This document shows, one piece after another, positions 48,042 through 52,702 of a DNA stretch of 64,000 bases (position 1 is the stretch's first letter; every line of letters begins with the position of its first letter). The notes under the pieces are model-generated. The model searched no databases and was not told where the DNA came from. It saw nothing but the letters and a program-made list of their open reading frames with translations. This DNA is from an uncultured Bdellovibrionales bacterium (GTDB lineage: Bacteria > Patescibacteriota > Minisyncoccia > Moranbacterales > DUUL01). Both the position numbers and the translations under genes were made by a program. The DNA is taken from the NCBI GenBank assembly GCA_964421125.1, contig CAYQVD010000001.1, positions 56,680 through 120,679 of the forward strand, given 5' to 3'.

Positions 48042-51000
48042 TCAACTTTTCAACCAAAAATTGATTTCTATACCATCAATTTTTACTTGTTTTTCAATGT
48101 CAGCTTCTGGTTTTTGATTGCCAGCTTTTCCAAGCTTGATTGCTAATACTTCCTTGGAAATTTCTGTCTTAAACTTTTCAAAAATTTCTTCCCCACCTTT
48201 ATAAAAGACCTCTATCCGATCATCAATCTGAAAATCAGCTTCTTTTCGAGCTTGTTGAATGTGACGAATAAGCTCTCGCATCTGACCTTCGATTTTGAGT
48301 TCAGGGGTAATTGTTGTAATAACTCCTAAAACTGCTATTTCAAAAAAATCAACAGTGGGAGTGTCTCCTTCATTAGATGGCTCACTTTTAACCCCCAAAG
48401 AAATTGCGACATCATTAGACTCTTTAATTTCATTAACCCTCGTAATGAGCTTAACATTTAACTCTTCTTTTATGATGTCGTTAATTTCATTGTTTAATTT
48501 TTCAATAATTTGAACTTCTGAAAGTGGTTGCCTGACTTTTATTTTCTGAGATGCTCGCACCTCTAACCCCCTCTTAACCAATTCTCGCGCAGAAGCCATC
48601 TCCTCGTTCAATTCCTTGTTAATCATTTTCTTATCAGCAATTGGGAAATCACAAAGGTGGACAGATTCTCCCTCTGTTAAATTTCTATAAATTTCTTCGG
48701 AGATGAAAGGAGCGAATGGTGCTAAAACCTTTGAAAATTCAGTCAGAACTGTCCAAAGCGTTTGATAGGCATCATTCTTGTCGTCATCACTTTCACTTTT
48801 CCAAAACCTCTTTCTACTTCTCCTGATATACCAATTAGAAAGATTGTCAACAAATTGTGGGAAAAATCTAGTTGCTTTATTCAACTCATATTTCTCCATC
48901 GCTGAATCAACATCTCGAATCAACATATTTAATTCTGATAAAATCCATTTATCCAATAAGTTTTTTGGTTCAACTTTTTCTCCTGGAGTCCAGTTATCAA
49001 TGCTGGCATAAAGAGTGAAAAATGAATAAGAATTTTGAATCATTCGAAACATCCCTCGAGAAAATTCAGAAAGCTCTTTTTCTGAAAAATTCAAATTCTG
49101 AGCACGAACAACTGGCGAATGAAGAAGATAAAATCTCAAAATATCTGCTCCGTATTTTTCAATCATCTCGGTTGGATCTGGATAATTCTGAAGTTTTTTT
49201 GCCATTTTCTTTCCATCTTCCGCCAAAACAATTCCATTCACAATTACATTTTGAAAGGCTTTTTTGTCAAAAATCCCAACAGCAATAGCGTGAAGATAAT
49301 AAAACCATGCCCTGGTTTGATCAATCCCTTCAGCAATAAACTCGGCTGGGAAACTTTTTTCAAATTTTTCTTTATTTTCAAACGGATAATGTACCTGAGC
49401 ATATGGCATTGAACCACTGTCAAACCAGGTATCCAATACATCTGGAATTCTTTTCATTTCTTTTTTACATTTTTCACAAGGAAAGGTAATCTCATCAACT
49501 ACATGCTTGTGAAGATCTTTAACTTTCTTACCACTCAAGTCTTCAAGCTCCTTCGCACTTCCCAAGACTTTCATTTCTCCACATTCACACTTCCAAATCG
49601 GCATTACAGATGCCCAATAACGCTGACGACTGATTGACCAATCTCTCGCTCCTTCAAGCCAGTTACCCCAACGACCTTCTTTAATATTATCAGGTTCCCA
49701 ATTAAGCTCCTTAGCATGTTCTAGCATTTTTTCTTTAATTTTTGTAATCGCCACAAACCAAGAAGATGTCGCATAATTTATCAAAGGCGTATCACACCTC
49801 CAACAATGCGGATAGCTATGTTCGTATTTCTTTTTTGAAAAAAGAAGGCTATTGTGTGCAAGATATTTAATAATTTCAATATCGGTTTTCTGATGATCAT
49901 CGCGAGGCTTCACTGAAAGTCCTGCAAAATCTTTAGCTTCAGCTTTAATCGCTCCATTCATTCCAACGTGCTGAATAAAGGGTAAGTTATTTTCTTTTCC
50001 AAAATTCATATCATCTTCACCAAAAGCAGGAGCGATATGAACAACTCCAGTCCCTTCTTCAGTCGTCACAAAATCTCCTGCATAAATCTTCCAACCATTT
50101 TCTTTATTTTCTAAACTATCTTGACTTGAATAATAATCAAAAAGAGGCTTATAATTCAGACCAATCAATTCTTTCCCTTTAATTTCAATTACAAAATCAT
50201 AATTCTTATCATTAAAAACCTCATTAATTCTATCTTTTGCTAAAATATAAAAATCATTTTCATGTTTTACTAAAAAATATTTAACATCTTTGCCAATAGC
50301 CAATGCAACATTTCCAATCAATGTCCATGGAGTAGTTGTCCAAGCCAAAACATAAACTCGTGGAGGACTTTTTTCTGTTTCCTCATCCGCTCTTTTTGCC
50401 TTATCCTTAAGATAAGATTTTATAGCATTTTCCGTCGGCTCGTAATCTATTTCGGGCAAATTATCAAAAGAAAACCATTCAATCTTTTCTGTTTCATCAG
50501 GCACTAAATTTTCTGGTTCACCTTTTATCCTGGTTAGATAACAAACTGTATCAAAAAGTCGTCCTTCTATAAACTCTGGATTGTGAATAATTGGCTCTGC
50601 TAATTCAATATTAACCCCTAGTTCTTCTTTTATTTCTCGTTCAAGTGCTTGACGAAAAGTCTCTCCTTCATCAACTTTACCCCCAGGCATAGCCCAAGTT
50701 TCTCGACGTCTGTCCTCTTTACGACGAATAAGTAATATCTCATCTTTATCATTAAAGATAAGCGCACCTACCCCTCGGCCAGTTTTACCCTTACAATATT
50801 TTAATTCAAATTTAGATATTACAGAAAGATCCTTAATATCTTTATATCCTTCTGAAATTTCAGTTTGCGAAAGAGTTGTTTCACATCGAGGACAAATATG
50901 CATCGACCGATATCCCTCATAAATCAGATCTTTTTCATAAAGCTTTTTGAACACCCACCAAACTGATTCCATATATTCAAGGTCCATAGTTTTATAACTA

Positions 51001-51437
51001 TTGTCCATATCAGCCCAACGTCCCATTTTCTCAATAACCTTTTCCCATTCTTCCACATAGCCCAAAACCTTAGTCCGACAGGTTTCATTGAACTTTTCTA
51101 CTCCCAATTCTTCAATTTCCTTTTTATTAGAAATTCCAAGGTCTTTTTCTGCAATATTTTCAATTGGTAATCCATGACAATCCCAACCCCATCGACGTTC
51201 CACTCGAAAGCCTTTCATTGTCCAATAACGCGGGATAACATCTTTCATGGTACTTCCTACAATATGACCATAATGAGGAGCTCCTGTTGCAAAAGGAGGG
51301 CCATCATAGAAACTATAGAGCTTTTTCTCACTTCTTTGTTCCACAGACTTCTCAAAAGTTTTATTTTCTTTCCAATACTCAGTTTGCTCATTTTCCATTT
51401 CTGAATATTTCCTTCTTGTATCTACTGGTTTGAACAT
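48042..51437 (-). CDS. ileS: Isoleucyl-tRNA synthetase (type 2, eukaryote/archaeal-like) carrying an embedded Nudix hydrolase domain
   Basis: N-terminus MFKPVD...EYWKENKTF; HIGH region YDGPPFATGAPHYGH; editing domain AWTTTPWTLIGN and TGVVHIAPAFGEDD; KMSKS variant GKKMAKKLQNYPDP. Residues about 216-345 insert GALIFNDKDEILLIRRKED...PGGKVDEGETFRQALEREIKEELGV (perfect Nudix box). Confidence 0.9.
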   Translation of the reverse strand: MFKPVDTRRKYSEMENEQTEYWKENKTFEKSVEQRSEKKLYSFYDGPPFATGAPHYGHIVGSTMKDVIPRYWTMKGFRVERRWGWDCHGLPIENIAEKDLGISNKKEIEELGVEKFNETCRTKVLGYVEEWEKVIEKMGRWADMDNSYKTMDLEYMESVWWVFKKLYEKDLIYEGYRSMHICPRCETTLSQTEISEGYKDIKDLSVISKFELKYCKGKTGRGVGALIFNDKDEILLIRRKEDRRRETWAMPGGKVDEGETFRQALEREIKEELGVNIELAEPIIHNPEFIEGRLFDTVCYLTRIKGEPENLVPDETEKIEWFSFDNLPEIDYEPTENAIKSYLKDKAKRADEETEKSPPRVYVLAWTTTPWTLIGNVALAIGKDVKYFLVKHENDFYILAKDRINEVFNDKNYDFVIEIKGKELIGLNYKPLFDYYSSQDSLENKENGWKIYAGDFVTTEEGTGVVHIAPAFGEDDMNFGKENNLPFIQHVGMNGAIKAEAKDFAGLSVKPRDDHQKTDIEIIKYLAHNSLLFSKKKYEHSYPHCWRCDTPLINYATSSWFVAITKIKEKMLEHAKELNWEPDNIKEGRWGNWLEGARDWSISRQRYWASVMPIWKCECGEMKVLGSAKELEDLSGKKVKDLHKHVVDEITFPCEKCKKEMKRIPDVLDTWFDSGSMPYAQVHYPFENKEKFEKSFPAEFIAEGIDQTRAWFYYLHAIAVGIFDKKAFQNVIVNGIVLAEDGKKMAKKLQNYPDPTEMIEKYGADILRFYLLHSPVVRAQNLNFSEKELSEFSRGMFRMIQNSYSFFTLYASIDNWTPGEKVEPKNLLDKWILSELNMLIRDVDSAMEKYELNKATRFFPQFVDNLSNWYIRRSRKRFWKSESDDDKNDAYQTLWTVLTEFSKVLAPFAPFISEEIYRNLTEGESVHLCDFPIADKKMINKELNEEMASARELVKRGLEVRASQKIKVRQPLSEVQIIEKLNNEINDIIKEELNVKLITRVNEIKESNDVAISLGVKSEPSNEGDTPTVDFFEIAVLGVITTITPELKIEGQMRELIRHIQQARKEADFQIDDRIEVFYKGGEEIFEKFKTEISKEVLAIKLGKAGNQKPEADIEKQVKIDGIEINFWLKS

Positions 51438-51922: not shown

Positions 51923-52276
51923 ATGATAGATCCAACAACACTAGAAGAACTCAAGCAAAGTCTTTTGGATGAAAAAAAGAAACTTAAAGATGAACTCGGG
52001 TTAATTGCAAGCAAAGAAGGAGGAGATGATTATGAAACAAAATTTGAAGACTTAGGCAGAGATGAGGAAGATAATGCCGAAGAAATTGAAGAATACACTA
52101 ATAAAATGGGAATAACAGAAACTCTTGAGAAAAAACTAAAAGAAATTAACGATGCACTTAATCGAATGGAAAGTGGAACTTACGGAATTTGTGAAAATTG
52201 TTTGAAGGAAGAAATTCCCCTAGATAGATTAAAAGCTTACCCTGCAGCAAGTACTTGCTTAAAATGTCAAAAATAA
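51923..52276 (+). CDS. DksA/TraR-family C4-type zinc-finger protein
   Basis: Coiled-coil N-terminus and C-terminal CENCLKEEIPLDRLKAYPAASTCLKC, matching the DksA/TraR CxxC-x17-CxxC finger. Confidence 0.7.
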   Translation: MIDPTTLEELKQSLLDEKKKLKDELGLIASKEGGDDYETKFEDLGRDEEDNAEEIEEYTNKMGITETLEKKLKEINDALNRMESGTYGICENCLKEEIPLDRLKAYPAASTCLKCQK

Positions 52277-52279
52277 TTT

Positions 52280-52702
52280 TTGAAAATGAGAAATTGGCCT
52301 TATCTACTATTAGCAACTTCTCTGTTAATTATTGATCAGATACTAAAAATTTTATCAATAAAAAACACCTTTCCAGAAATGGGAGGGTTTCTGGTTAGCT
52401 TCTGCAATCCCAATCTTGCATGGAACATTCCAGTGAATGAAATCTTTTTTTGGATCGCTTGGATTATTATTGTCTTTCTAATTATTTATAATCTCAAAAA
52501 GTCTTTCAATATTTTTCTGCTAATCGTTCTCTTTGGAGCAATTTCAAATATTATTGATAGAATATTGGGAGGTTGTGTTATTGATTATATAAATATTCCT
52601 TATTTTCCAGCCTTTAATCTTGCTGACGTAATGATAACAGGTGGAATTATCCTCTTTTTAATTCAAAATGTTTTCTGGAAAAATAAAAATAATTCAAAAT
52701 AA
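52280..52702 (+). CDS. lspA: Lipoprotein signal peptidase (signal peptidase II)
   Basis: 4 TM. Conserved FNLADVMITGG (catalytic Asp region) and N-terminal DQILK region. 140 aa. Confidence 0.75.
   Translation: MKMRNWPYLLLATSLLIIDQILKILSIKNTFPEMGGFLVSFCNPNLAWNIPVNEIFFWIAWIIIVFLIIYNLKKSFNIFLLIVLFGAISNIIDRILGGCVIDYINIPYFPAFNLADVMITGGIILFLIQNVFWKNKNNSK

What the first reader, a model, noticed from the sequence alone, without database searches (positions are those of the whole stretch)
50403..50792. Nudix hydrolase domain inserted into isoleucyl-tRNA synthetase between the catalytic core and the editing domain
After the first half of the Rossmann fold (…ISKFELKY), a segment of about 130 aa with a textbook Nudix box (GGKVDEGETFRQALEREIKEELGV = Gx5Ex7REUxEExGU) is present before the editing-domain motif AWTTTPWT. 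Canonical IleRS goes from the equivalent of ISKF to WTTTPWT within about 30 residues. Aminoacyl-tRNA synthetases generate Ap4A and related dinucleotides and mis-activated adenylates, which are classic Nudix substrates, so a built-in Nudix domain could locally hydrolyse these. I am not aware of this fusion being described.
Basis: partly seen in the sequence, partly recalled or inferred. Interest (0 to 1): 0.8.

Follow-up and report, generated by a model that had tools for sequence, protein, structure and literature searches.

The report
Nudix enzyme nested inside isoleucyl-tRNA synthetase
A complete small nucleotide-pyrophosphatase (Nudix) enzyme is built, in frame, into a surface hairpin of the proofreading domain of this uncultured bacterium's isoleucyl-tRNA synthetase; the arrangement is real, conserved in dozens of related candidate-phyla bacteria and apparently undescribed, but what the extra enzyme does there is not yet known.

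Summary
Confirmed. Window 48042-51437 (-) is one uninterrupted 1131-aa type-2 IleRS. Residues 214-359 (50361-50798) replace a 3-6-residue beta-turn and consist of a complete Nudix domain (PF00293, 84 bits; canonical box at 253-275) plus a 15-aa linker. All IleRS synthetic and editing motifs are intact.

The insert folds on its own (pLDDT 90.8). It sits in the first hairpin of the CP1 editing domain, just before WTTTPWT, not strictly between domains.

It is not an artefact. About 30 independent clusters from Moranbacteria-, Falkowbacteria- and Dojkabacteria-type Patescibacteria carry the same-origin insert at the same site, with RExxEE conserved. In the Dojkabacteria-type clade it is the majority form. 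Other Nudix lineages have entered the same loop and a second CP1 loop.

In the window's lineage the Nudix and the adjacent editing-domain segment have a different ancestry from the rest of the gene, which points to a recombining cassette.

Its nearest relatives are small free-standing MutT/NUDX1-like Nudix proteins, and the substrate cannot be assigned. The Ap4A/adenylate idea is neither supported nor excluded.

Seven literature searches found no description. I rate it a new variant of a known kind, with moderate-to-high interest.

The parts
48042..51437 (-). ileS: type-2 isoleucyl-tRNA synthetase with embedded Nudix domain, 1131 aa
   Evidence: Single ORF. TIGR00392 ileS scores 916 bits against a cutoff of 621. 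Best solved relatives are IleRS2 structures, 8C8V at 770 bits.
51264..51275 (-). HIGH motif (HYGH, aa 55-58) of the synthetic site
   Evidence: Direct reading.
50802..50822 (-). Hairpin strand 1 (aa 206-212, VISKFEL), the last scaffold element before the insert
   Evidence: DSSP strand 206-212 in the AF2 model. Aligns to 8C8V residues up to 212.
50361..50798 (-). The whole insertion (aa 214-359, 146 aa) replacing a 3-6-residue beta-turn
   Evidence: Alignment with insert-less relatives and with 8C8V.
50775..50801 (-). N-terminal junction (aa 213-221, KYCKGKTGR) with the conserved Y..TG.G motif
   Evidence: At least 90% conserved across 30 embedded copies. Corresponds to the G.DYIGVG N-terminus of free-standing relatives.
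50406..50774 (-). Nudix fold (aa 222-344): strands 219-228, 234-241, 245-255, 276-305, 316-322; helices 261-273 and 333-344
50613..50681 (-). Nudix box GX5EX7REUXEEXGU (aa 253-275), with catalytic E259, R267, E268, E271, E272
   Evidence: Direct reading. RE..EE and GG are conserved in all 30 embedded copies.
50547..50570 (-). Family-specific motif IEGRLFDT (aa 290-297); E..GR...T is conserved in embedded copies only
   Evidence: At least 90% conserved in 30 embedded copies. Free-standing relatives have HWVSP here.
50358..50402 (-). Return linker (aa 346-360, KAKRADEETEKSPPR)
   Evidence: No secondary structure and lower pLDDT (~61-71). Only 22-55% identity among homologues, against 56-64% for the fold.
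50322..50357 (-). Hairpin strand 2 and the Thr-rich editing motif (aa 361-372, VYVLAWTTTPWT)
   Evidence: DSSP strand 361-367; motif position.
49938..50360 (-). Editing-domain body (aa 360-~500) whose ancestry differs from the rest of the gene (mosaic segment)
   Evidence: P0123 ranks 1-2 of 119 for aa 1-213 and 521-1000 but 83-111 for 360-480. Nudix-bearing P0122, P0157, P0125 and P0165 rank 1, 2, 7 and 10 for 360-420.
50010..50054 (-). Editing-site motif GTGVVHIAPAFGEDD (aa 462-476)
   Evidence: Direct reading. Aligned to the same motif in 8C8V.
49194..49208 (-). KMSKS-type loop (KMAKK, aa 744-748)
   Evidence: Direct reading.

Best explanation
SHOWN. The gene encodes a functional-looking type-2 IleRS of a Patescibacteria (Moranbacteria-like) bacterium. 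A whole free-standing-type Nudix protein (about 130 aa) plus a 15-aa return linker is nested in the tip of the first beta-hairpin of the CP1 editing domain, six residues before the Thr-rich editing motif. The Nudix folds as an independent excursion and keeps every catalytic residue. The host keeps HIGH, KMSKS, its zinc cysteines and its editing motifs. The insertion had a single origin for the main type, is old, is the majority form in Dojkabacteria-type IleRS, and is under purifying selection.

INFERRED (evolution). The insert moves between IleRS alleles together with the adjacent stretch of editing domain by homologous recombination, and it is occasionally lost. This explains its patchy distribution.

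INFERRED (function, my best guess). The polypeptide is bifunctional. The Nudix module is an active Mg-dependent nucleoside-polyphosphate pyrophosphohydrolase of the MutT/NUDX1/NUDT15-like kind, doing NTP or NDP-X clean-up or salvage. In some relatives a histidine-phosphatase module in the same protein would complete a second step. It has been lodged in a permissive loop of an essential, constitutively expressed enzyme in a gene-poor organism. It is not an integral part of the aminoacylation or editing chemistry.
For: Anatomy:
- One ORF with a nested Pfam hit.
- Insertion delimited against relatives and against 8C8V.
- Full-length AF2 model has a confident Nudix and a coil linker; the excised domain reaches pLDDT 90.8.
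- Host motifs are intact.

Reality and conservation:
- The identical protein is in four public sources on a 122-kb contig.
- Homologues at 86, 62, 61 and 58% identity have the same insert.
- Three GTDB species representatives carry it.
- 21 of the 31 closest Dojkabacteria-type clusters carry it, on contigs up to 1.14 Mb.
- RE..EE, GG, the junction motif and E..GR..T are at least 90% conserved in 30 copies, while the linker is poorly conserved.

Single origin from a free-standing Nudix:
- Embedded copies are monophyletic relative to the free-standing ones. The best free-standing relatives are 38-43% identical, complete 140-150-aa proteins.

Cassette:
- Rank switch of P0123 against Nudix-bearing sequences exactly at the insert. 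P0123's editing domain is congruent with its scaffold neighbours, whereas the window's is not.

Kind of Nudix:
- Sequence profile and fold searches give 4DYW, 4KYX, AtNUDX1, NUDT15, NudI and MutT as nearest. MutT models align end to end.

Generic-host reading:
- Sister IleRS carry unrelated small enzymes (His_Phos_1, an alpha/beta-hydrolase-like module, rhodanese) at other loops. A LeuRS-like protein carries Nudix x3 plus HAD. NCBIfam has an IleRS with GNAT.
- No other Nudix of this family is present in the 64-kb window.
Against: - Nudix domains entered the CP1 editing domain repeatedly. At least two further lineages occupy the same loop (P0271/P0085, P0394/P0335), and another occupies the next CP1 loop (P0431/P0513). 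Other module types used other sites. That non-random pairing argues for some functional coupling with the editing domain rather than mere lodging.
- The embedded family has its own conserved motifs (E..GR..T and a basic R.E..RR loop) that free-standing relatives lack, which hints at specialisation.
- The recombination inference rests on identity ranks and NJ trees of protein alignments, not on formal tests. Co-adaptation of the neighbouring segment could mimic it.
- I had no model coordinates, so the distance and orientation of the Nudix site relative to the editing and synthetic sites are unknown.
Confidence: 0.5

Rival explanations
1. By-product clearance. The embedded Nudix is a dinucleoside-polyphosphate (Ap3A-Ap6A) hydrolase, or otherwise removes adenylate-derived side products made by the IleRS active site. 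It is positioned on CP1 so that hydrolysis happens where the products are released.
For: - aaRSs are the main cellular source of Ap4N, and Nudix enzymes (NUDT2, RppH/NudH, mycobacterial MutT1) are known Ap4A hydrolases (review PMC7705103).
- Nudix was captured repeatedly and independently in CP1 loops.
- The embedded family has a specific basic loop, RRKEDRRRE, which could bind a long polyphosphate. This last point is my inference.
Against: - RppH-type NCBIfam models match only the box region, at 41 bits against cutoffs of 116 or more.
- No dedicated Ap4A hydrolase is in the top 60 sequence-profile PDB hits. The first one appears at Foldseek rank 49.
- The Tyr about 17 residues after the box, which I recall as the ApnA-hydrolase marker, is absent (G292 is at +17, with no Tyr from +10 to +24).
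- Aminoacyl-AMP is an acyl-phosphate, not a Nudix-type pyrophosphate substrate.
- Most close IleRS relatives manage without the insert.
Confidence: 0.2
2. Regulatory sensor. The Nudix module mainly binds (and perhaps slowly turns over) a signalling nucleotide such as ppGpp, Ap4A or ADP-ribose. Through its rigid N-terminal junction to the CP1 hairpin, it modulates editing-domain movement or tRNA 3'-end shuttling.
For: - The N-junction is short and conserved (Y..TG.G, 8 residues), whereas the C-linker is long and variable. This suggests a fixed orientation relative to the hairpin.
- The adjacent editing-domain segment co-varies or co-travels with the insert.
- Dojkabacteria-type copies have a 1-2-residue expansion in the box loop, and some lack the final G of the box, which may lower catalysis.
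Against: The catalytic RE..EE and the upstream E/D are retained in all 30 copies, which is what one expects of an active hydrolase. There is no structural or biochemical evidence for inter-domain contact, because no coordinates were available.
Confidence: 0.1
3. Self-protection. The embedded small enzymes of CPR IleRS (Nudix, GNAT, phosphatase, esterase-like) inactivate natural IleRS inhibitors that mimic Ile-AMP or bind the synthetic site. This would be analogous to GNAT or phosphoramidase immunity against aminoacyl-nucleotide antibiotics.
For: The only support is the pattern that every embedded module is a small-molecule-modifying enzyme, plus general knowledge that MccE/RimL-type GNATs detoxify aminoacyl-nucleotides (my recollection, not checked here).
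Against: There is no direct evidence. Known IleRS inhibitors such as mupirocin are not Nudix substrates. The inserts are at different sites and occur in different combinations, which fits opportunistic lodging better.
Confidence: 0.05
4. Artefact: an assembly chimera, a frameshift, or a mis-joined neighbouring Nudix gene.
For: None found. The window comes from a metagenome-type assembly, and read support could not be inspected.
Against: - The frame is uninterrupted and composition is uniform.
- The same insertion is present at the same residue in about 30 independent clusters from different samples and phyla-level lineages, including contigs of 0.66-1.14 Mb.
Confidence: 0.01

Closest known systems
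Type-2 (eukaryote-like) bacterial IleRS, e.g. Priestia megaterium IleRS2 (PDB 8C8V) and Thermus thermophilus IleRS (1ILE)
   Same: Collinear over the whole scaffold (770 and 677 bits). Same HIGH and KMSKS motifs, zinc knuckles, Thr-rich and GTG.VH.AP..G.DD editing motifs, and the DUF5915-type C-terminal domain.
   Different: Those enzymes have a 3-residue turn (8C8V residues 213-215) where this protein has 146 residues forming a Nudix domain plus linker.
Free-standing small Nudix hydrolases of the MutT/NUDX1/NUDT15 type: Burkholderia pseudomallei 4DYW, Rickettsia felis 4KYX, Arabidopsis NUDX1, human NUDT15, and 140-150-aa homologues in Patescibacteria, Saccharibacteria, DPANN and Clostridia
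   Different: The embedded copies are covalently nested in IleRS. They have their own motifs (Y..TG.G junction, E..GR..T in place of HWVSP, a basic R.E..RR loop) and form a separate clade. The substrates of the nearest neighbours are diverse or unknown.
NCBIfam NF040702 'isoleucine--tRNA ligase, N-acetyltransferase domain-containing' (ileS_w_GNAT)
   Same: A curated precedent for a bacterial IleRS with a foreign small-enzyme domain embedded in its N-terminal half. The model is about 200 positions longer than a plain IleRS before the position that aligns with residue 397 here.
   Different: The guest domain is different (GNAT, not Nudix). This protein scores 312 bits against a cutoff of 1999, so it is not a member. 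The exact insertion site of the GNAT was not determined, and I found no publication on it.
Mycobacterial MutT1 (Rv2985), a Nudix enzyme with 8-oxo-(d)GTP and diadenosine-polyphosphate activity (PDB 9CXX)
   Different: NF052459 scores 28.7 bits against a cutoff of 475. The His_Phos_1 inserts are nearest to PhoE/CobC-type phosphatases and do not hit MutT1. In IleRS the two modules sit at separate loops, and the window's protein has only the Nudix.
Accessory-domain accretion in aminoacyl-tRNA synthetases generally (CP1 editing domains nested in class Ia Rossmann folds; appended domains of eukaryotic aaRSs)
   Same: Domain-in-domain nesting is typical of class Ia synthetases and is catalogued as such (PMC13114784).
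   Different: Here a second level of nesting places an unrelated, complete metabolic enzyme inside the editing domain itself. That survey does not list Nudix as a guest (0 occurrences).

Membership tests
Isoleucyl-tRNA synthetase (TIGR00392 equivalog) | HMM score above the curated cutoff | tested here: met
   916.2 bits against a cutoff of 621.4.
Isoleucyl-tRNA synthetase (TIGR00392 equivalog) | Class I signature motifs HIGH and KMSKS | tested here: met
   HYGH at 55-58 and KMAKK at 744-748. Relatives have KMSKR, KMAKR or KMAKK.
Isoleucyl-tRNA synthetase (TIGR00392 equivalog) | CP1 editing motifs (Thr-rich WTTTPWT; GTG.VH.AP..G.DD) and zinc-knuckle cysteines | tested here: met
   AWTTTPWT at 365-372, GTGVVHIAPAFGEDD at 462-476, CPRC at 182-185, CWRC at 545-548.
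Isoleucyl-tRNA synthetase (TIGR00392 equivalog) | Ile-tRNA(Ile) synthesis and Val editing activity | not testable with these tools
   Requires biochemistry.
Type-2 (IleRS2) subclass | Closer to IleRS2/eukaryote-like structures than to type-1, and a DUF5915-type C-terminal domain | tested here: met
   8C8V at 770 bits and 1ILE at 677 bits, against type-1 1FFY at 298 and 8C9E at 288. PF19302 at 60 bits.
Nudix hydrolase superfamily (PF00293) | HMM score above the gathering threshold | tested here: met
   84.0 bits against 21.1, E 1.3e-23, residues 219-331.
Nudix hydrolase superfamily (PF00293) | Nudix box GX5EX7REUXEEXGU | tested here: met
   GKVDEGETFRQALEREIKEELGV at 253-275 fits every position. 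The main-type homologues keep it. Dojkabacteria-type copies keep RExxEE but have 1-2 extra residues in the loop.
Nudix hydrolase superfamily (PF00293) | Alpha/beta/alpha sandwich Nudix fold | tested here: met
Nudix hydrolase superfamily (PF00293) | Mg-dependent pyrophosphohydrolase activity | not testable with these tools
   Requires enzyme assays.
MutT 8-oxo-dGTP diphosphatase (TIGR00586 equivalog) | HMM score above the curated cutoff | tested here: not met
   56.5 bits against 97.9, although the alignment is end to end (10-126 of the insert to 10-125 of 129).
Nudix Ap4A hydrolase / RppH (NudH) type | Score above cutoff for RppH-type NCBIfam models | tested here: not met
   Best is NF001938 at 41.1 bits against 116, covering only the box region (residues 6-61 of the insert).
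Nudix Ap4A hydrolase / RppH (NudH) type | Structural neighbours dominated by ApnA hydrolases | tested here: inconclusive
Nudix Ap4A hydrolase / RppH (NudH) type | Tyr about 17 residues downstream of the Nudix box (marker recalled from the Bessman-lab literature, not re-verified here) | tested here: not met
   Downstream sequence is NIELAEPIIHNPEFIEGRLFDTVCY. Position +17 is G292, and the first Tyr is at +25.
Mycobacterial MutT1 (NF052459) | HMM score above cutoff, and a homologous second (phosphatase) domain | tested here: not met
   28.7 bits against 475. The His_Phos_1 inserts of sister IleRS hit PhoE and CobC, not MutT1. The window's protein has no His_Phos_1 module.
IleRS with embedded GNAT (NF040702) | HMM score above cutoff / presence of a GNAT domain | tested here: not met
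   312 bits against 1999, and no acetyltransferase Pfam hit.
Intein | Conserved N-terminal Cys/Ser, C-terminal His-Asn, and a downstream Cys/Ser/Thr nucleophile | tested here: not met
   C215 is not conserved (Q, M, M, K, R or A in homologues). The C-junction is P-x-V-Y with no His-Asn. The insert is a Nudix fold.

The most novel reading that the evidence does not exclude
The Nudix module is functionally coupled to the IleRS editing domain rather than merely lodged in it. It would either hydrolyse a nucleotide by-product or signal generated at or near the synthetase (Ap3-6A, adenylylated nucleotides, ppGpp-type alarmones), or use nucleotide binding to gate CP1 movement. This would make it a previously unknown, built-in link between proofreading or aminoacylation and nucleotide signalling. 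The pointers are: repeated independent capture of different Nudix lineages in two CP1 loops; a rigid conserved junction; motifs specific to the embedded family; and co-inheritance with the adjacent editing-domain segment.
Probability: 0.2. Interest if true: 0.8.

Novelty: new variant of a known kind. Interest (0 to 1): 0.62.

Why it matters
- **For aaRS biology.** Aminoacyl-tRNA synthetases are textbook examples of domain accretion, but a complete, catalytically intact metabolic enzyme nested inside the proofreading domain of a bacterial synthetase has not, as far as I could find, been described.
- **It is not a one-off.** It is the majority form of IleRS in one candidate-phylum lineage, and unrelated Nudix lineages have repeated the capture. 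Either the CP1 hairpin is an unusually permissive 'docking port' that gene-poor episymbiotic bacteria use to keep small housekeeping enzymes expressed, or there is an unrecognised functional link between editing or aminoacylation and nucleotide-polyphosphate metabolism.
- **Both readings are testable** with one recombinant protein and two mutants.
- **For evolution.** The apparent cassette-like exchange of the 'Nudix plus editing-domain segment' between IleRS alleles is a concrete case of modular evolution within an essential gene.
- **For annotation.** Such proteins are currently labelled 'class I tRNA ligase family protein' or 'NUDIX domain-containing protein', and they can be mis-split by annotation pipelines.

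Tried and rejected
- **Frameshift, chimera or composition anomaly.** Rejected: single frame, uniform GC/GC3, and many independent homologues.
- **Intein.** Rejected: no conserved junction nucleophiles or His-Asn.
- **Gene neighbourhoods of the closest free-standing relatives in CPR loci.** Heterogeneous and uninformative.
- **MutT1 homology of the Nudix + His_Phos pairing.** Rejected for the phosphatase domain.
- **Contig and sample origin of the window's gene.** The exact-product look-up found nothing on record.
- **AFDB search for the whole architecture.** The library was unavailable.
- **First short-query homologue search.** It returned only short or partial proteins and was of limited use. 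My first attempt was out of frame.
- **GTDB species-representative scan.** In particular it misses Dojkabacteria-type copies.
- **Literature.** Seven searches and four papers inspected, with no prior description. One apparent hit (a P. falciparum IleRS paper) mentions Nudix only in its reference list.
- **Rfam.** Only tRNAs in the window, and no T-box or other leader upstream of ileS.
Full report
**1. The observation**

Window 48042-51437 on the minus strand is one uninterrupted 1131-aa ORF (no internal stop). The finding's coordinates (50403-50792) correspond to residues 216-345.

Pfam gives NUDIX PF00293 at 84.0 bits (E 1.3e-23, gathering 21.1) for residues 219-331. This hit is nested inside a single tRNA-synt_1 match covering 20-782. 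The protein also has the anticodon-binding domain and DUF5915 C-terminal domain of type-2 IleRS. NCBIfam's ileS equivalog scores 916 bits against a cutoff of 621.

**2. Exact anatomy**

Close relatives without the insert read ...KDLSVIAEFRLID-DEKT-SILAWTTTPWTL. The window's protein has 146 residues between the same two strands. Against the best solved relative, Priestia megaterium IleRS2 (8C8V, 770 bits), query 3-213 aligns to chain 2-212 and query 360-999 to chain 216-848. So residues 214-359 replace a three-residue turn.

An AlphaFold2 model of the whole protein (73-sequence alignment, mean pLDDT 78.4, pTM 0.72) shows:
- strand 206-212;
- a confident Nudix sandwich (strands 219-228, 234-241, 245-255, 276-305, 316-322; Nudix helix 261-273; C-terminal helix 333-344; block pLDDT 73-91);
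- a 15-residue segment without secondary structure (345-360, pLDDT about 61-71);
- strand 361-367, which leads directly into WTTTPWT.

Excised, the insert folds on its own with pLDDT 90.8 and pTM 0.85. The site is therefore the tip of the first beta-hairpin of the CP1 editing domain.

**3. The host enzyme looks intact**

HYGH (55-58), KMAKK (744-748), the zinc-knuckle cysteines (CPRC 182-185, CWRC 545-548), the Thr-rich motif and GTGVVHIAPAFGEDD (462-476) are all present. The scaffold aligns end to end with solved IleRS structures.

Gene context is ordinary: a divergent DksA/TraR-type zinc-finger gene and lspA, then glycosyltransferases. Rfam finds only tRNAs in the window.

**4. Not an artefact, and not unique**

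- The identical protein is recorded from NCBI, JGI, Logan and ENA on a 121,930-bp contig.
- Homologues at 86% (P0122), 62% (P0124), 61% (P0125, Moranbacteria), 58% (P0165, Falkowbacteria) and P0157 have the same insert at the same residue.
- Three GTDB species representatives (L001-L003) encode it inside IleRS ORFs.
- An exhaustive HMM scan of 1.84 billion cluster representatives found further, much more divergent carriers: P0241; P0243/P0390; P0250; and P0251/P0391 from a Candidatus Dojkabacteria contig of 888,748 bp.
- Searching with the Dojkabacteria protein showed that 21 of its 31 closest clusters (44-99% identity, contigs up to 1.14 Mb) carry the hairpin Nudix. The insert-less P0401-P0407 are nested among them. 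In that lineage the insert is the majority state and its absence looks secondary.
- Across 30 embedded copies the following are at least 90% conserved: the N-junction Y..TG.G, GG, the catalytic RE..EE, a family-specific E..GR...T, a Trp, and the P.V at the C-junction. The linker is only 22-55% identical, against 56-64% for the fold and 61-71% for the scaffold.
- That is the pattern of a functional domain under purifying selection joined by a spacer. Composition gives no hint of recent foreign origin (GC3 0.21 against 0.27 +/- 0.05).

**5. Where it came from**

The nearest non-embedded relatives (38-43% identity) are complete 140-150-aa stand-alone Nudix proteins of Patescibacteria, Saccharibacteria, DPANN archaea and Clostridia. 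They start G.DYIGVGVGALIFN and end ..I..YKK. The insert is therefore a whole Nudix protein, not a fragment.

Main-type inserts are monophyletic relative to these. The Dojkabacteria-type inserts hit main-type inserts better than any free-standing protein and share the junction and EGRLF motifs, so they have the same origin.

Other captures look independent:
- Two other insert types in the same loop hit free-standing Nudix proteins better than they hit the main type: P0271/P0085 and P0394/P0335.
- P0431 and P0513 carry a Nudix in the next CP1 loop, about 25 residues after WTTTPWT.

Nudix domains have therefore entered the IleRS editing domain several times.

**6. How it spreads**

On an NJ tree of the scaffold (inserts masked) the Nudix-bearing IleRS are scattered among insert-less ones (the tree is weakly resolved). 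A sliding comparison explains at least the window's case:
- The window's protein is 85-95% identical to insert-less P0123 (rank 1-2 of 119) over residues 1-213 and 521-1000.
- From the insertion point through about residue 480, P0123 drops to rank 83-111.
- Over residues 360-420 the best matches are Nudix-bearing P0122, P0157, P0125 and P0165 (ranks 1, 2, 7, 10). Elsewhere P0125, P0157 and P0165 rank 84-119, whereas P0122 ranks 1-2 throughout. A mean-rank test over core columns 212-300 gave P = 0.0085.
- P0123's editing domain agrees with its own scaffold neighbours (P0128, P0135, P0145), whereas the window's does not.

I infer that the window's lineage imported a segment comprising the Nudix plus the adjacent part of CP1 by homologous recombination. 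Strong co-adaptation of the neighbouring segment is the alternative.

**7. What kind of Nudix, and the Ap4A idea**

- Every subfamily model is below its cutoff: PRK08999 at 69 against 245, MutT TIGR00586 at 56.5 against 97.9 (aligned end to end), RppH-type at 41 against 116 (box region only), MutT1 at 28.7 against 475.
- A profile of the insert against PDB sequences ranks 4DYW, 4KYX, AtNUDX1, MutT, NudG, NUDT15 and NUDT18. No dedicated Ap4A hydrolase is in the top 60.
- Foldseek gives 4DYW (TM 0.84/0.88, 35% identity), 4KYX, NUDX1 and NUDT15. An Aquifex Ap4A hydrolase appears only at rank 49.

So the module is a small monomeric MutT/NUDX1-like Nudix whose substrate cannot be assigned from sequence or fold. 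aaRSs do make Ap4N, and Nudix enzymes are among the known Ap4A hydrolases (PMC7705103). It is not reasonable for aminoacyl-adenylates, which are acyl-phosphates (established chemistry).

**8. A wider pattern**

Sister IleRS of the same radiation carry other small enzymes at other loops:
- His_Phos_1 (119 bits) at the zinc-knuckle loop (P0123, P0203, P0157, P0241), or after KMSKS (P0394, residues 846-1017).
- A weak Ser_hydrolase-like alpha/beta module with HSLGAS in the second CP1 loop (P0182, P0224; 16.4 bits, below cutoff).
- A C-terminal rhodanese (P0157).

Nudix and His_Phos_1 co-occur in three divergent IleRS (P0157, P0241, P0394). The phosphatase is nearest to PhoE/CobC and not to MutT1. 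A LeuRS-like protein (P0259) carries a Ser_hydrolase-like module, three Nudix domains and a HAD domain. NCBIfam curates an IleRS with an embedded GNAT. No other Nudix of this family is encoded in the 64-kb window.

**9. Mechanism: best estimate and rivals**

Shown: a bifunctional polypeptide with an intact IleRS and an intact, autonomously folding Nudix on the CP1 hairpin.

| Reading | Weight |
|---|---|
| Active nucleoside-polyphosphate pyrophosphohydrolase doing NTP/NDP-X clean-up or salvage, lodged in a permissive loop of an essential gene in a gene-poor organism | about 0.5 for the whole statement; the anatomy alone about 0.95 |
| Clearance of ApnA-type by-products of the synthetase | 0.2 |
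| Nucleotide-sensing regulator of CP1 | 0.1 |
| Inhibitor detoxification | 0.05 |
| Artefact | 0.01 |

The variety of guest enzymes and sites supports the lodging view. The repeated, site-biased capture of Nudix domains specifically in CP1, the conserved rigid junction, the motifs specific to the embedded family and the co-travelling CP1 segment are the observations that lodging explains least well. They keep the coupling hypotheses alive.

**10. Known or new**

Seven full-text searches and four inspected papers gave no description of a Nudix-bearing IleRS, or of any aaRS with an embedded Nudix. These included a survey of the whole Nudix clan with no occurrence of 'tRNA', 'synthetase' or 'ligase', and a 2026 survey of domain-insertion architectures with no mention of Nudix.

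The proteins themselves are in public databases under generic names such as 'class I tRNA ligase family protein' and 'NUDIX domain-containing protein'. Both component families are well known, and domain nesting is typical of class Ia synthetases. I therefore rate it a new variant of a known kind, not a categorically new system.

**11. Limits**

- There was no access to model coordinates or PAE, so inter-domain geometry is unknown.
- Trees are NJ on protein identities.
- Taxon names are those given by the sources.
- The source sample of the window could not be retrieved.
- The afdb50 library was unavailable.
- No biochemical inference here has been tested.

Noticed in passing
Proteins P0123, P0203, P0157, P0241 (site equivalent to window aa ~627-640, about 49518-49559) and P0394 (aa 846-1017): Sister CPR IleRS carry a complete His_Phos_1 (PhoE/CobC-like histidine phosphatase, 119 bits). 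It sits in the zinc-knuckle loop after CECGE.KV.GS or, in P0394, between the catalytic and anticodon-binding domains. It co-occurs with the Nudix in P0157, P0241 and P0394. The window's closest scaffold relative, P0123, has the phosphatase but not the Nudix.
   Followed up: partly
Proteins P0182, P0224 (second CP1 loop, equivalent to window aa ~385-395); P0513: An insert of about 190 aa with an HSLGAS motif. It is only weakly similar to Pfam Ser_hydrolase (16.4 bits, below the cutoff of 22), so it may be an alpha/beta-hydrolase. P0513 has a precomputed PF06821 hit together with a Nudix.
   Followed up: partly
Proteins P0431 (Nudix box at aa 291) and P0513 (aa 296): A different Nudix lineage is inserted in the second CP1 loop, about 25 residues after WTTTPWT, rather than in the hairpin. 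This is an independent Nudix capture by the IleRS editing domain.
   Followed up: partly
Proteins P0271/P0085 and P0394/P0335 (same hairpin loop): Two further Nudix insert types occupy the same loop. By BLAST they resemble free-standing Nudix proteins more than the main insert type, so they are probably independent captures.
   Followed up: partly
Protein P0259 (1268 aa, Logan contig of 22 kb): A LeuRS-like class I synthetase fragment with an N-terminal Ser_hydrolase-like module, three Nudix domains and a HAD phosphatase between the KMSKS region and the anticodon-binding domain. Its N-terminal catalytic half appears to be missing or replaced.
   Followed up: no
Protein P0157 (C-terminal ~120 aa): A rhodanese domain (55 bits, active-site loop CKTGARS) is appended to an IleRS that also has Nudix and His_Phos_1 inserts, giving three guest enzymes in one synthetase of 1423 aa.
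   Followed up: partly
Window 49938-50360 (aa 360-~500): The editing-domain body of the window's IleRS has a different nearest-neighbour set from the rest of the gene. This is a mosaic: a likely recombination tract that includes the Nudix.
   Followed up: yes
NCBIfam NF040702 (hit on the window's IleRS): A curated model exists for 'isoleucine--tRNA ligase, N-acetyltransferase domain-containing'. I did not see a member sequence, its insertion site, or any paper on it.
   Followed up: partly
Proteins P0009 (395 aa, 385-kb contig), P0011 (436 aa, 70-kb contig), P0032 (418 aa, 181-kb contig): Several IleRS gene products on long contigs are short and end in divergent tails (for example ...QKQTWKLLKI). 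This suggests frameshifts, split genes or sequencing errors in ileS of some CPR assemblies. P0011's tail begins a His_Phos_1 insert.
   Followed up: no
Window 51923-52702 (+): Divergently transcribed from ileS are a DksA/TraR-type C4 zinc-finger protein (117 aa) and signal peptidase II (lspA, 140 aa, TTG start). This is the classic ileS-lspA neighbourhood in a rearranged orientation. Downstream are a PMT-like membrane glycosyltransferase and a GT2-GtrA fusion.
   Followed up: partly
Locus L007 443-976; locus L009 2788-3339: The free-standing relatives of the insert have no common gene context. Judging by eye from the N-terminal sequences only, one lies next to a dCTP-deaminase-like gene and another next to a second Nudix-like gene.
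   Followed up: no
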